A stretch of DNA of 64,000 nucleotides from Escherichia phage vB_EcoM-pEB20, in the sequence record OP114733. The stretch is one strand, 5' to 3'. Within the stretch, counting starts at the first letter, position 1; every line of letters starts with the position of its first letter. The notes under the pieces were generated by a model. That model saw nothing but the letters and a program-made list of their open reading frames with translations. It had not been told where the DNA came from and did no database searches. Position numbers and translations under genes: made by a program. This document shows, one piece after another, positions 49,048 to 52,283 of the stretch.

Positions 49048-49506
49048 ATGACTATCAATTCAGACGTTTTTATCCGCCGTAATAAACTCCGTCGAATCTT
49101 TGAAACGGAGTTCCGCAAAATAAATGCCGGTATAAAAGATGCTGCAAAGTCTCTTGGACTACCAGGCTTTCATATCAAGTATTCTCAACATCTCTTAGAT
49201 CGTGCCATCCAGAGAGAAATAGATGAGAATTACGTTTTTGAATTATTTCATAAAGTAAAAAATCACGTTAAAGAAGTTGCAGAATTTTTGTCAATGCCGG
49301 CACGTCCAGATGTTGATGAAGATTTTGTCGAAGGTGTCGAGTATCGTCCAGGCCGTTTAGAAATAACTGACGGAAATCTTTGGTTAGGACTTACAGTTTG
49401 TCGCGAAAATCCGGCATTCAAAATGAAGACTCTTCAATGCAGAATGGCTATTATTAACAGTAAACGACTACCAGGAAAAGCTTCTAAAGCAGTGATTAAA
49501 ATCTAG
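49048..49506 (+). CDS. regB: RegB site-specific endoribonuclease
   Basis: 152 aa; MTINSDVFIRRNKLRR...KYSQHLLDRAIQREIDE...RLPGKASKAVIK matches T4 RegB. Confidence 0.92.
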   Translation: MTINSDVFIRRNKLRRIFETEFRKINAGIKDAAKSLGLPGFHIKYSQHLLDRAIQREIDENYVFELFHKVKNHVKEVAEFLSMPARPDVDEDFVEGVEYRPGRLEITDGNLWLGLTVCRENPAFKMKTLQCRMAIINSKRLPGKASKAVIKI

Positions 49507-49514
49507 AGGTAAAC

Positions 49515-50057
49515 ATGAGAAAAGCACTACTCGCTGGTCTATTTGCTCTTTCATTATCAGCACATAGCTCCGAGCATACTTTTAGTAATGTCCAACTCGA
49601 TAACTTGAATTATGCTTATCAGTTTGGGGAACAGTTTTCTAAGGACGGAAAATTTAAAACGCATGAAAATATGCATAAGAAAGGACTTGGATACATAATG
49701 GCCGCAATACTATGGCAGGAATCATCCGCCGGTATTAATCTTAAAGATAAGAAAGGTCACCATGCGTATGGAATGTTCCAAAATTATCTACCAACAATGA
49801 GGGCAAGAATTAACCAGCTTGGTTATAATATGACTGATGCCCAAATTAAGAAAATGCTATCTAAGCGGTCTAATTCAGCCAGATGGGCTTATATCGAATT
49901 TTCTTATTGGTTAAATATACATAACGGGGATATAAGAAAAGCTATATCCTCATATAATGCGGGATGGAAGACAAGTGCTGGAAGTAAATATGCTTCTGAA
50001 GTCCTAGAAAAGGCTAATTACCTTAAATCAAATAAACTACTGGAAATAAAAGAATGA
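49515..50057 (+). CDS. secreted lytic transglycosylase-like protein (SLT motifs)
   Basis: signal peptide MRKALLAGLFALSLSAHS; motifs WQESS, AYGMFQ, SYNAGW. Confidence 0.65.
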   Translation: MRKALLAGLFALSLSAHSSEHTFSNVQLDNLNYAYQFGEQFSKDGKFKTHENMHKKGLGYIMAAILWQESSAGINLKDKKGHHAYGMFQNYLPTMRARINQLGYNMTDAQIKKMLSKRSNSARWAYIEFSYWLNIHNGDIRKAISSYNAGWKTSAGSKYASEVLEKANYLKSNKLLEIKE

Positions 50058-50401
50058 CCAAAATGTTGGCTTTAATAGTTGGCTTGGTTTCATTTAACGC
50101 TCTTGCTAATACTACATATACTGATGTAACGGAGTATACAAACAGAACGGCGTCTGATTATTGCGGTAAAAGTCAAGAGTGTAAAGTAGATTTTTCACAA
50201 AAATTGTTATATGCGTATAAAGACGGAGAAAAAGATGGGGCGTCTAGTAGGTTCAAGGCGTCTACCTTAATTAAAAGATACTATAAAAAATGGCAAATAT
50301 TAGAATGCTCGGTGGCGGAACCTAAAGATAAGGCAGCATGCAATTCTATGGTGGACCGTCTAGTTGACTCTTATAATAGAGGACTTGCAGCAAGTGATTA
50401 A
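50054..50401 (+). CDS. small secreted protein
   Basis: 115 aa with N-terminal signal peptide; ATGA-coupled to the SLT-like gene. Confidence 0.55.
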   Translation: MTKMLALIVGLVSFNALANTTYTDVTEYTNRTASDYCGKSQECKVDFSQKLLYAYKDGEKDGASSRFKASTLIKRYYKKWQILECSVAEPKDKAACNSMVDRLVDSYNRGLAASD

Positions 50402-50861
50402 AAACTATATCAAGGGCGATATTGTCGCCCTGTTTTCTAAAGGTAATAATATTGCTCACGGGTGTAATTGTTTTCATACAATGGGCGCCGGTGTAGCAGG
50501 CCAATTAGCAAAGGCTTATCCAAAAATTTTAGAAGCCGATAAACTTCAAACCGAATTCGGAGACGAGTCTAAACTCGGGACTTATTCGGTTTATGAAAAA
50601 TATTTTAAGACCCATAAAGCTTATTGCTTTAATCTTTATACACAGTTTGAGCCGGGACCTAATTTTGAGTACTCTGCTTTAATGAATTGTATAATAGAAT
50701 TAAATGAATTCGGAAAGAATAAGATAACAAAGCCTGTAATTTATATGCCAAGAATTGGTGCAGGTATTGGTGGTGGAAACTGGGATGTCATCGAAGAGAT
50801 TTTAGATACGTATTCCACTAAACTAGAAATTGTGATTGTTGATTGGGAACCGTTATTATGA
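50394..50861 (+). CDS. macro domain protein (TARG1/DarG-type ADP-ribose hydrolase fold)
   Basis: GTG start assumed; motifs KGDIVALF, HGCNCFHTMGAGVAG, MPRIGAGIGGGNW. Confidence 0.7.
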   Translation: MIKNYIKGDIVALFSKGNNIAHGCNCFHTMGAGVAGQLAKAYPKILEADKLQTEFGDESKLGTYSVYEKYFKTHKAYCFNLYTQFEPGPNFEYSALMNCIIELNEFGKNKITKPVIYMPRIGAGIGGGNWDVIEEILDTYSTKLEIVIVDWEPLL

Positions 50862-51070
50862 ATATACATTATCCACATCCATATGATCCAAAGAATAAGG
50901 CAGTAATTATTCGTCAATGGGAACGCATTTGTCGTACTAAATGTCCAATTAATAGTCCACATGATGTAGATAAAGACTACATCGGAACATTCGTTGAATA
51001 TACCTTTATTGATAAGAAAGGCCGTAAACAACATGTAGAAGAATATTGCTTAAAGGTGACATGGCTATGA
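50858..51070 (+). CDS. hypothetical protein
   Basis: ATGA overlap with macro gene stop. Confidence 0.45.
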   Translation: MNIHYPHPYDPKNKAVIIRQWERICRTKCPINSPHDVDKDYIGTFVEYTFIDKKGRKQHVEEYCLKVTWL

Positions 51071-51273
51071 GTCAAACAAAAATTCTTACAGGTGCTAAAT
51101 GCGAAAAATGCGAATGGCCTGTAGTTTTTGCTTTATGCAATGACGAAATGGCTTGTGATTTTGATTATTGGTGTTACTGTTCGAACAAAGGTTGTAGCAA
51201 TCATAAAGGTGAAGGGTTTTACTCAGGATTTTACCCTTACCCAGATTTCGTTAAAGAAGGTGAACCTAAATGA
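51067..51273 (+). CDS. cysteine-rich (zinc-binding?) small protein
   Basis: 68 aa with CEKCEW ... CDFDYWCYCSNKGC. Confidence 0.5.
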   Translation: MSQTKILTGAKCEKCEWPVVFALCNDEMACDFDYWCYCSNKGCSNHKGEGFYSGFYPYPDFVKEGEPK

Positions 51274-51452
51274 AATTGACTAAAGAAGAGAAAGCTAAAC
51301 TGTTCGAACTTATCCATGACCTATTGGATGAGCAAGCAGCCACCAATGCGTACGATGAATATGCTCCTTTAACAGATGAAGAATATAATGCATTGATGGA
51401 ATCATTTGACAGGAAAGAACAAGAACTCATTGACTACGTGAATTCACTATAA
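51270..51452 (+). CDS. hypothetical acidic protein
   Basis: 60 aa. Confidence 0.45.
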   Translation: MKLTKEEKAKLFELIHDLLDEQAATNAYDEYAPLTDEEYNALMESFDRKEQELIDYVNSL

Positions 51453-51461
51453 AGGACTCTT

Positions 51462-52043
51462 ATGGCTAGTTTAATTTTTACCTATGCCGCTATGAACGCT
51501 GGTAAGTCTGCTTCATTACTTACTGCCGCACATAACTATAAAGAACGTGGCATGGGTGTATTAGTTCTTAAACCGGCTATTGATACTCGCGATTCAAAAG
51601 GTGAAATAGTCTCTCGTATTGGTATTCGTCAGGATGCCAATATAATTACAAAAGACATGGATATCTTTGAATTCTATAAATGGGCTGCAGCACAAAAGGA
51701 TATTCACTGTGTATTTGTTGACGAAGCTCAGTTCTTAACTACTGAAAAGGTGTATCAACTTAGTCGTATTGTTGACGTATACAATGTGCCGGTAATGGCA
51801 TATGGACTACGAACAGATTTTAAAGGTAATCTATTTGAAGGTTCTCAAGCATTAATGGCTATTGCCGATAAGCTTGTTGAACTTAAAGGTGTCTGTCATT
51901 GTGGTAAAAAGGCCACAATGGTAGCTAGAGTCACGGAAGACGGACTTCCAATTACAGATGGCAGTCAAATTGAAATTGGTGATACAGATAGATACGTGTC
52001 ATTATGCCGGAAGCATTGGAACGATTTGACAGGGTTGTTATAA
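51462..52043 (+). CDS. tk: thymidine kinase
   Basis: 193 aa; P-loop AAMNAGKSASLL; C-terminal zinc knuckle CHCGKKA...CRKH. Confidence 0.93.
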   Translation: MASLIFTYAAMNAGKSASLLTAAHNYKERGMGVLVLKPAIDTRDSKGEIVSRIGIRQDANIITKDMDIFEFYKWAAAQKDIHCVFVDEAQFLTTEKVYQLSRIVDVYNVPVMAYGLRTDFKGNLFEGSQALMAIADKLVELKGVCHCGKKATMVARVTEDGLPITDGSQIEIGDTDRYVSLCRKHWNDLTGLL

Positions 52044-52070
52044 ATACTAATATCTAACCAAGAGGTATAT

Positions 52071-52283
52071 ATGCAGCAATTAAACGAAAGACAACTTCGT
52101 AATCTTACTGTAACCCAATTGGATGAAATCCGAAGAGAATTAGGACATTCTATTTCTCATTTAAACGAGGATATCCGTCAAACTGGTTCTAAAGCTGATT
52201 ATACACGCAAGCGCAAGCTGGAAAAATACCTCACAGATGTTAAGGCCGTCCAAAGGCGAAAAATAAATACTGGCCAAAATTAA
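52071..52283 (+). CDS. hypothetical protein (rI.-1 position)
   Basis: 70 aa between tk and rI. Confidence 0.5.

What the first reader, a model, noticed from the sequence alone, without database searches (positions are those of the whole stretch)
50394..50861. Phage-encoded TARG1/DarG-type macro domain: candidate eraser of ADP-ribosylation
The motifs KGDIVALF...HGCNCFHTMGAGVAG and MPRIGAGIGGGNW resemble the TARG1/OARD1 and DarG macro domains, which remove ADP-ribose from proteins and from thymidine in DNA. Two roles are plausible: reversing DNA ADP-ribosylation by DarT-type defence toxins, or regulating the ADP-ribosylation placed by the phage's own Alt/ModA/ModB-type transferases. The likely start is a GTG overlapping the upstream stop.
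Basis: partly seen in the sequence, partly recalled or inferred. Interest (0 to 1): 0.65.

Follow-up and report, generated by a model that had tools for sequence, protein, structure and literature searches.

The report
T4 Tk.4/AdfM-type phage macrodomain gene

Summary
The ORF is real: 50394..50861 on the + strand, GTG start, 155 aa. It has a Pfam Macro hit above threshold. The AlphaFold model has pLDDT 95.6, and its five best structural neighbours are BT1257/SCO6735, Poa1p, two DarG structures and TARG1.

The window is a Mosigvirus (RB69-like T-even phage). The protein is 85% identical, without gaps, to T4 Tk.4 and sits in the same regB-vs.1-vs-tk.4-tk.3-tk.2-tk.1-tk block. A November 2025 preprint renamed T4 tk.4 adfM: it was the only T4 gene depleted on a DarTG2 host, and a clean deletion sensitised T4.

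Two refinements:
- The TARG1/DarG catalytic Lys is an invariant Gln here (Q84), and TARG1 Asp125 is Gly/Ala. This resembles SCO6735, an active thymidine-ADP-ribose hydrolase in which Gln85 is essential.
- The same sequence family includes Adpp of Vibrio phage Gary (38% identity), a proven ADP-ribose-1''-phosphate phosphatase that works with NARP1. This phage lineage has no NARP1 genes.

A role in reversing Alt/ModA/ModB modification has no support. Removal of ADP-ribose from DNA by a Tk.4-type protein has not been shown biochemically.

The parts
50394..50861 (+). tk.4/adfM orthologue: 155-aa stand-alone macrodomain protein (GTG start, TGA stop)
   Evidence: ORF and sequence; Pfam Macro; 85% identical without gaps to T4 Tk.4; annotated 'macro domain-containing protein' in JK36 at the same coordinates; AF2 pLDDT 95.6.
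50379..50383 (+). Shine-Dalgarno GAGGA, 10 nt upstream of the GTG
   Evidence: Read from the sequence; conserved in T4.
50394..50401 (+). 8-nt overlap of the tk.4 start with the end of vs (GTGATTAA), suggesting translational coupling
   Evidence: T4 has the equivalent ATGA overlap.
50457..50492 (+). H22-G-C-N25-C26 ... M30-G-A-G33: first ADP-ribose-binding loop. N25 aligns with N23 of PhiKZ AdfM, whose mutation reduces activity; H22 aligns with Poa1p H23.
   Evidence: In the set N25 is 115/116 and H22 114/116; C26 and G33 are invariant in the and sets; in the set N25 and C26 are 142/142, H22 139/142 and G33 141/142. PhiKZ alignment; PMC13309987; Poa1p alignment.
50631..50645 (+). N80-L-Y82-T-Q84 motif. 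Q84 (codon 50643-50645) occupies the position of TARG1 K84, DarG K80 and SCO6735 Q85.
   Evidence: Q84 is invariant in 116/116 and 142/142 relatives. HMMER profile alignment to TARG1. SCO6735 sequence and numbering with PMC9411070. A syntenic orthologue (L045) has Lys here.
50748..50783 (+). P119-R-I-G-A-G-I-G126-G-G-N-W130: second (diphosphate-binding) glycine-rich loop. G126 occupies the TARG1 D125 position.
   Evidence: P119, I121, G122 and G124 are invariant; G122 and G124 are 142/142, P119 141/142 and I121 139/142. Aligned to TARG1 MPRIGCGLDRLQW and SCO6735 LPRIGCGLAGGTW.
50858..50861 (+). ATGA overlap: tk.4 stop and tk.3 start
   Evidence: tk.3 = DUF7202.
50054..50401 (+). Upstream gene vs (valyl-tRNA synthetase modifier); synteny marker
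51462..52043 (+). Downstream thymidine kinase tk; synteny marker
   Evidence: Pfam TK 7.3e-57.

Best explanation
The ORF is the Mosigvirus orthologue of T4 tk.4 (adfM), an early-region, stand-alone macrodomain enzyme that acts as an orphan antitoxin against DarTG2. Host DarT2 attaches ADP-ribose to thymidine in single-stranded phage DNA and blocks replication. The phage protein binds the ADP-ribose through its two glycine-rich loops and hydrolyses the C1''-N glycosidic bond, releasing ADP-ribose and restoring thymidine. Unlike DarG and TARG1, it has an invariant Gln (Q84) instead of the catalytic Lys, and no Asp partner. The chemistry is therefore most likely of the SCO6735 type: Gln positions the distal ribose and an activated water attacks, with no Lys-Schiff-base intermediate.

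Shown here: the fold, the family placement, the orthology and synteny with T4 tk.4, and the active-site residues.
Shown elsewhere, for T4 only: the genetic requirement for DarTG2 resistance.
Inferred: the enzymatic removal of ADP-ribose from DNA by this protein, and the Gln-based mechanism.
For: - 85% identity over all 155 residues to T4 Tk.4, with identical gene order regB-vs.1-vs-tk.4-tk.3-tk.2-tk.1-tk.
- T4 tk.4 was the single significant hit of a transposon screen on a DarTG2 host, and a clean knock-out sensitised T4 (bioRxiv 10.1101/2025.11.20.689424).
- T4 lacking adfA and adfN stays DarTG2-resistant, so another factor was expected (PMC11825919).
- High-confidence macro fold whose five nearest solved structures are all ALC1-like class members, including DarG.
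- DarG is the only hit in NCBIfam (8.2e-8) and in PADLOC (9e-9).
- Q84 aligns with TARG1 K84 and SCO6735 Q85 and is invariant in 258 relatives.
- SCO6735 removes thymidine-linked ADP-ribose, and its Q85A mutant is inactive.
- A syntenic T4-like orthologue (L045) carries Lys at this position and a DarG-like GCGIGGLEW loop, so Q and K interchange at this site in nature.
- An unrelated-lineage phage macrodomain (PhiKZ gp104) removes DarT2-placed ADP-ribose from DNA in vitro, so the strategy is established for phages.
Against: - No biochemical assay exists for any Tk.4-type protein. The preprint infers the mechanism from structural similarity.
- The genetic result is for T4, not for a Mosigvirus.
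- The canonical DarG/TARG1 catalytic Lys is absent.
- ALC1, which binds but does not hydrolyse ADP-ribose (general knowledge), also has Gln at this position, so Gln alone does not prove catalysis.
- The closest biochemically characterised relative by sequence is an ADPR-1''-phosphate phosphatase (Gary Adpp, 38% identity), not a DNA glycohydrolase.
- The loop after Q84 lacks the lysines that help SCO6735 bind DNA.
Confidence: 0.68

Rival explanations
1. Its main job is small-molecule processing. Like Adpp or yeast Poa1p, it would be an ADP-ribose-1''-phosphate phosphatase (or a hydrolase of another soluble ADP-ribose derivative) that counters NAD+-degrading defences such as aRES. Any DarTG2 effect would be secondary.
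For: - Vibrio phage Gary Adpp (KNV71_gp137), which converts ADPR-1P to ADPR in vitro, belongs to the same sequence family: 38% identity, E=5e-24, with the shared motifs HxCNC, NxY(T/G)Q and PxIGxGxxGGxW.
- An Acinetobacter phage homologue sits directly after the Adps and Namat genes.
- Poa1p is among the top sequence and fold matches.
- T4 Tk.4 has long been annotated 'A1pp phosphatase motif', and PHROG 335 is labelled 'phosphatase'.
Against: - Adpp is useful only together with NARP1. tblastn with two Adps and two Namat proteins finds nothing (all E>1) in the window or in the rest of the 99%-related JK36 genome.
- All 40 or so IMG/VR homologues with at least 50% identity lie in the regB-tk block with none of these genes nearby. 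Only one distant homologue (36% identity, long loop) has Namat nearby.
- NARP1-linked members carry a 7-residue insertion after the Gln that Tk.4-type proteins lack.
- The only phenotype reported for T4 tk.4 in that preprint is with DarTG2.
Confidence: 0.14
2. It neutralises DarT2 without catalysis, by binding the toxin or by shielding ADP-ribosylated DNA, as a stoichiometric inhibitor.
For: - Catalytically dead SCO6735, DarG and TARG1 all inhibit DarT by interaction (PMC9411070).
- The canonical Lys is missing.
- ALC1 has Gln at this position and is a pure binder (general knowledge).
Against: - The protein lacks the C-terminal DarT-binding domain of DarG: it is 155 aa and matches only positions 4-146 of the 338-position DarG model.
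- The whole substrate-pocket signature (N25, C26, D49, Y82, Q84, G122, G124) is invariant or nearly so (N25 115/116) across hundreds of diverged relatives. That pattern is typical of an enzyme active site.
- The family member Adpp is a proven enzyme.
Confidence: 0.07
3. It reverses or tunes protein or RNA ADP-ribosylation written by the phage's own Alt, ModA and ModB.
For: The related phage JK36 encodes ModA, ModB and Alt. The gene lies in the early region. TARG1 and SCO6735 also act on protein substrates.
Against: - Alt, ModA and ModB modify arginine, and macrodomains are not known to cleave arginine-ADP-ribose; that is the work of ARH/DraG-type enzymes (general knowledge, not tested here).
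- No linkage: alt, modA and modB lie 50-65 kb away in the genome.
- The family is abundant in phage groups such as T5-like Vibrio phages and Acinetobacter Saclayvirus, which as far as I know lack Alt/Mod enzymes (not tested here).
- tk.4 was non-essential in T4 on plain K-12.
Confidence: 0.04

Closest known systems
T4 Tk.4 = AdfM (anti-DarT factor Macrodomain; bioRxiv 10.1101/2025.11.20.689424)
   Same: 85% identical over 155 residues with no gaps, the same length, the same neighbours and the same translationally coupled start. All family-invariant residues are shared.
   Different: Different genus (Mosigvirus versus Tequatrovirus); GTG instead of ATG start; 24 substitutions, including G127 for K127 in the second glycine loop. 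The DarTG2 phenotype has been tested only for T4.
Streptomyces coelicolor SCO6735 / Bacteroides BT1257 (ALC1-like macrodomains with catalytic Gln)
   Different: Only 24-32% identity. The loop after the Gln is 5 residues shorter and lacks the DNA-binding lysines. SCO6735 V25 is G23 here. The phage family has its own HGCNC and D49 signatures.
DarG antitoxin macrodomain (T. aquaticus, M. tuberculosis) and PhiKZ gp104 'AdfM'
   Different: DarG and PhiKZ gp104 carry the catalytic Lys (for example FPTKDNW in gp104). DarG also has a C-terminal DarT-binding domain and an adjacent darT. Similarity to PhiKZ gp104 is confined to a 23-residue stretch (E=6e-4). The name AdfM has been given independently to two non-orthologous proteins.
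Human TARG1/OARD1
   Same: Fold, the N-terminal YxKGD and MGAG motifs, and the MPRIG-x-G loop. Profile E=1e-16.
   Different: The K84/D125 catalytic dyad is replaced by Q84/G126.
Adpp of Vibrio phage Gary (NARP1-AP) and yeast Poa1p, both ADP-ribose-1''-phosphate phosphatases
   Same: Same phage sequence family as Adpp (38% identity, E=5e-24), with shared HxCNC, D49 and NxY(T/G)Q motifs. Poa1p shares the HxCNC motif and the Asp.
   Different: No NARP1 partner genes in this phage. No 7-residue insertion after the Gln. Poa1p has Ser at the Q84 position by my own reading of the sequences.

Membership tests
Macro domain superfamily (Pfam PF01661) | Score above Pfam's gathering threshold | tested here: met
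   28.3 bits against a cut-off of 22, E=1.9e-6, covering model positions 2-117 of 118.
Macro domain superfamily (Pfam PF01661) | Three-layer alpha/beta/alpha macro fold with two glycine-rich ADP-ribose-binding loops | tested here: met
ALC1-like macrodomain class (TARG1, DarG, SCO6735, Poa1p) | Closer in sequence and structure to class members than to MacroD-like, viral or PARG-like macrodomains | tested here: met
T4 Tk.4/AdfM orthologous group | Full-length high identity to T4 Tk.4 | tested here: met
   131/155 identical, no gaps, E=7e-105.
T4 Tk.4/AdfM orthologous group | Conserved position between vs and tk.3, upstream of tk | tested here: met
   All IMG/VR homologues with at least 50% identity have regB and tk (and most also vs) within 8 kb.
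T4 Tk.4/AdfM orthologous group | Required for phage growth on DarTG2-expressing hosts | not testable with these tools
   Reported for T4 only.
DarG antitoxin (NCBIfam NF048014) | Score at or above the equivalog cut-off | tested here: not met
   31.9 bits against a cut-off of 250.
DarG antitoxin (NCBIfam NF048014) | C-terminal DarT-binding domain | tested here: not met
   The protein is 155 aa and matches only model positions 4-146 of 338 and 4-145 of 329 in PADLOC.
DarG antitoxin (NCBIfam NF048014) | Encoded next to a darT toxin gene | tested here: not met
   The neighbours are vs (no Pfam hit), vs.1 (weak SLT), tk.3 (DUF7202), tk.2 (zinc-binding) and tk.1 (DUF7438). None has a DarT domain hit.
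DarG antitoxin (NCBIfam NF048014) | Catalytic lysine (T. aquaticus K80) | tested here: not met
   The equivalent position is Q84, established through the alignment to TARG1 K84 and the K84=K80=Q85 equivalence stated in PMC9411070.
TARG1/OARD1 | Lys84/Asp125 catalytic dyad | tested here: not met
   Q84 and G126 at the aligned positions; Q in 258/258 relatives and A or G at position 126.
SCO6735-type Gln-dependent ADP-ribosyl-thymidine hydrolases | Gln at the catalytic position (Q85), essential for activity | tested here: met
   NLYTQ aligns with NMIGQ of SCO6735 and BT1257. Whether the Gln is essential in this protein was not tested.
SCO6735-type Gln-dependent ADP-ribosyl-thymidine hydrolases | Extended mobile loop with DNA-binding lysines after the Gln | tested here: not met
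   8 residues (FEPGPNFE) between Q84 and Y93, against 13 in SCO6735 (HGMKTGSKGAPVR); no Lys in the loop.
Adpp (NARP1-associated ADPR-1''-P phosphatase) | Homology to the characterised Adpp of Vibrio phage Gary | tested here: met
   38% identity over 141 residues, E=5e-24.
Adpp (NARP1-associated ADPR-1''-P phosphatase) | Encoded within or next to a NARP1 operon (Adps plus Namat) | tested here: not met
   No Adps or Namat homologue in the window or in the remainder of the JK36 genome; all tblastn hits have E>1.
Adpp (NARP1-associated ADPR-1''-P phosphatase) | ADPR-1''-P phosphatase activity | not testable with these tools
   Needs an enzyme assay.

The most novel reading that the evidence does not exclude
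The phage HGCNC/NxYTQ macrodomain family could be a general hydrolase for leaving groups at the C1'' position of ADP-ribose, built around an invariant Gln. The same small enzyme would then strip ADP-ribose from DarT2-modified thymidine in DNA and also dephosphorylate ADPR-1''-phosphate made by aRES-type NADases. One gene would serve two unrelated NAD+-based counter-defences, with the loop after Q84 tuning the preference between DNA and small-molecule substrates.
Probability: 0.25. Interest if true: 0.6.

Novelty: already known. Interest (0 to 1): 0.3.

Why it matters
The gene shows how T-even phages stack counter-measures against DNA ADP-ribosylation. T4 carries AdfA and AdfN for DarTG1, and this macrodomain covers DarTG2.

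The result is useful for annotation. Hundreds of T4-like genomes label this gene 'phosphatase' or 'hypothetical protein'. It should be read as the AdfM orthologue.

One open point is worth an experiment. The family replaces the DarG/TARG1 catalytic lysine with an invariant glutamine and also contains a proven ADPR-1''-phosphate phosphatase. Its substrate range and chemistry are therefore unresolved.

Tried and rejected
- Longer TTG-50364 start: rejected. The T4 ATG and the N-termini of homologues align with the GTG at 50394.
- DarG membership: rejected on score, domain architecture, gene context and catalytic residue.
- TARG1-type dyad: absent.
- Adpp/NARP1-AP role: considered seriously because of the 38% identity to Gary Adpp, then down-weighted after finding no Adps or Namat in the window or in the rest of the JK36 genome and none near the syntenic homologues.
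- sigma-70 promoter scan around the gene: no enrichment over shuffles (15 found, 18 expected), so no promoter was assigned.
- An 8-sequence MAFFT alignment (A4) misplaced the TARG1 K84 region. I relied instead on the 121-sequence alignment and the HMMER profile alignment.
- A regular-expression hit suggesting Lys at position 84 in L066 was a false match. Only L045 has it.
- I could not obtain model coordinates to inspect the pocket directly.
- I could not retrieve the LeRoux 2022 DarTG paper to confirm that RB69 is naturally DarTG2-resistant.

Full report
**What is there.**
The window is a T-even phage of the genus Mosigvirus (the RB69 group). The stretch 49500-52100 is 99% identical to Escherichia phages AV111 and SA79RD and to Shigella phage JK36.

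The flagged ORF runs from a GTG at 50394 to a TGA at 50859-50861 on the + strand and encodes 155 residues.

The GTG start is well supported:
- It overlaps the stop of the upstream gene vs (GTGATTAA).
- A GAGGA ribosome-binding site lies 10 nt upstream.
- The JK36 record annotates the same start.
- The ATG of the T4 orthologue aligns exactly with it.

The stop overlaps the start of the next gene (ATGA). The gene is therefore one link in a translationally coupled chain: vs, tk.4, tk.3, tk.2, tk.1.

**Identity.**
The gene order is regB, vs.1, vs, this ORF, three small ORFs (DUF7202, a phage zinc-binding domain, DUF7438), then thymidine kinase. This is the T4 order regB, vs.1, vs, tk.4, tk.3, tk.2, tk.1, tk.

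The protein is 85% identical to T4 Tk.4 over all 155 residues with no gaps. It is the Mosigvirus orthologue of tk.4.

**Fold and family.**
- Pfam Macro scores 28.3 bits against a cut-off of 22. PHROG 335 ('phosphatase') scores 4.7e-67.
- An AlphaFold2 model built on 70 homologues has mean pLDDT 95.6 and pTM 0.91.
- A family profile finds BT1257 at 4e-17, TARG1 at 1e-16, SCO6735 at 2.5e-14, Poa1p at 3e-13 and DarG at 8.5e-13, against 3e-4 for coronavirus Mac1.

The protein is roughly equidistant from all characterised members of that class.

**What is known about the orthologue.**
A November 2025 preprint (bioRxiv 10.1101/2025.11.20.689424) ran a transposon-insertion screen of T4 on a DarTG2-expressing host.
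- tk.4 was the single significant hit.
- A clean knock-out sensitised T4 to DarTG2.
- The authors noted structural similarity to M. tuberculosis DarG, named the gene adfM, and inferred enzymatic removal of ADP-ribose from DNA.

This fills a gap noted earlier: T4 lacking both adfA and adfN remains DarTG2-resistant (PMC11825919). No biochemical data for a Tk.4-type protein were found.

**Active site.**
- In both a 121-sequence MAFFT alignment and a HMMER profile alignment, TARG1 K84 aligns with Q84 and TARG1 D125 aligns with G126.
- Q84 is invariant in 116 of 116 homologues down to about 39% identity, and in 142 of 142 further cluster representatives.
- Position 126 is always Ala or Gly.

The dyad is therefore absent, but this does not refute the function.
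- SCO6735 of Streptomyces coelicolor also lacks both residues and carries Gln85 at the Lys position. It efficiently removes ADP-ribose from thymidine in DNA, and Q85A abolishes activity (PMC9411070).
- I recovered the SCO6735 and BT1257 sequences from PDB alignments. After subtracting an assumed 20-residue tag, the Gln of the NMIGQ motif is residue 85, and it aligns with the NLYTQ motif here.
- One syntenic T4-like orthologue from IMG/VR (L045, 44% identity) has NLYTK and a DarG-like GCGIGGLEW loop. Gln and Lys therefore interchange at this position in nature.

A caution: ALC1 also has Gln at this position, and by general knowledge it is a non-catalytic binder.

**A second characterised relative.**
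A January 2026 preprint (bioRxiv 10.64898/2026.01.28.702374) showed that a macrodomain protein of Vibrio phage Gary (KNV71_gp137, Adpp) converts ADP-ribose-1''-phosphate to ADP-ribose. ADP-ribose-1''-phosphate is the product of the aRES defence NADase. The conversion lets the NARP1 pathway (Adps plus Namat) rebuild NAD+.

I located that gene between the Adps and Namat genes. It belongs to the same sequence family as the window protein: 38% identity, E=5e-24, with shared motifs HxCNC, D49, NxY(T/G)Q and PxIGxGxxGGxW. An Acinetobacter phage homologue likewise follows Adps and Namat.

By sequence, this is the closest biochemically characterised relative, so it is the main rival. Context argues against it here:
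- tblastn with two Adps and two Namat proteins finds nothing (all E>1) in the window or in the remaining parts of the JK36 genome.
- Among 80 IMG/VR loci, every homologue with at least 50% identity sits in the regB-tk block with an 8-residue loop after the Gln. Only one distant homologue (36% identity, long loop) has Namat nearby.
- NARP1-linked members carry a 7-residue insertion in that loop.

The two activities are chemically close, because both remove a leaving group from C1'' of ADP-ribose. A dual-substrate enzyme cannot be excluded.

**Other rivals.**
- Non-catalytic inhibition of DarT2 is conceivable, because catalytically dead SCO6735, DarG and TARG1 all inhibit DarT. However, this protein lacks DarG's toxin-binding domain, and its pocket residues are conserved in the way expected of an enzyme.
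- Reversal of the phage's own Alt/ModA/ModB marks has no support. Those genes exist in the related genome but lie far away. They target arginine, a linkage that macrodomains are not known to cleave (general knowledge, not tested here). The family is also common in phage groups that, as far as I know, lack Alt/Mod enzymes.

**Membership.**
- The protein is a member of the macro superfamily, of the ALC1-like class, and of the Tk.4/AdfM orthologous group.
- It is not a DarG: 31.9 bits against a cut-off of 250, no C-terminal domain, no adjacent darT, no catalytic Lys.
- It is not a TARG1-type enzyme, because the dyad is absent.
- It is not a context-defined Adpp, because there is no NARP1.
- It shares the catalytic Gln of SCO6735 but not its extended lysine-bearing loop.
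- PhiKZ gp104 was also named AdfM and was shown to remove DarT2 marks in vitro (PMC13309987). It is a different, Lys-bearing, DarG-like lineage with only a 23-residue local match to this protein.

**Distribution.**
tblastn finds relatives in 2,799 of 50,697 phage records. These are mostly large myoviruses of Enterobacteria, Vibrio, Acinetobacter, Aeromonas and Pseudomonas. A profile search of 1.84 billion cluster representatives finds 17,950 clusters at E<=1e-3 and 1,186 at E<=1e-30.

**Verdict.**
The gene is already annotated as a macrodomain protein in near-identical genomes, and its T4 orthologue already has a published (preprint) anti-DarTG2 role.

What this analysis adds:
- The family uses an invariant Gln rather than the DarG/TARG1 Lys.
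- It shares a family with a proven ADPR-1''-phosphate phosphatase.
- The name AdfM covers two non-orthologous proteins.

Interest is modest.

Noticed in passing
window 50413-50431 (+), tail to 50441: A terminator-like hairpin (AGGGCGATATTGTCGCCCT: 8-bp stem, 3-nt loop, followed by GTTTTCTAAA) lies 19 nt inside the tk.4 coding sequence, over the KGDIVALF codons. The stem-loop is identical in T4. Phage NBG1 annotates a 'terminator' in this stretch. An 81-nt fold has z=-2.5. It could attenuate transcription or modulate translation between vs and tk.4.
   Followed up: partly
L045 8001-8456 (IMGVR_UViG_2974573495_000001): A syntenic T4-like orthologue (44% identity) has Lys instead of the otherwise invariant Gln84 (NLYTK) and a DarG-like GCGIGGLEW second loop. 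This is a natural Q-to-K swap at the catalytic position.
   Followed up: partly
literature; PhiKZ gp104 versus T4 Tk.4: The name AdfM has been given independently to two non-orthologous phage macrodomains: PhiKZ gp104 (Lys-type, DarG-like, biochemically active) and T4 Tk.4 (Gln-type). Their pairwise similarity is a 23-residue match, E=6e-4.
   Followed up: yes
L005 3105-6135 (Vibrio phage Gary); L003 904-4474 (Acinetobacter phage 14/CRR8): Homologues of the window protein sit inside Adps-Adpp-Namat (NARP1-AP) operons. In the Acinetobacter phage the order is Adps, a small ORF, Namat, macro, rather than Adps, macro, Namat.
   Followed up: partly
whole window: The MotA-box-like core TGCTTNA occurs 88 times against 48 expected (0 of 100 shuffles reach 88), as expected for a T4-type genome with many middle promoters. 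Four copies lie on the + strand between 50625 and 51135, inside and just downstream of tk.4.
   Followed up: no
window 49515-50057 (+): The vs.1 orthologue (180 aa) has a signal-peptide-like N-terminus and a sub-threshold SLT transglycosylase match (E=0.0013, 18.8 bits against a cut-off of 21.3). In JK36 it is mis-annotated as 'endoribonuclease RegB'.
   Followed up: no
L006 26326-30433 (JK36, outside the window): The related Mosigvirus carries genes annotated as arabinose-5-phosphate isomerase, a GlmU-like bifunctional protein and a U32 peptidase next to dCMP hydroxymethylase. These may be the sugar-modification module for hydroxymethylcytosine in RB69-group phages.
   Followed up: no
window 50748-50783; T4 L002 3426-3890 (-): The second glycine loop reads GAGIGGGNW here and GAGIGKGNW in T4. 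Position 127 is Gly in more than 90% of relatives, so the tested T4 allele is the unusual one.
   Followed up: no
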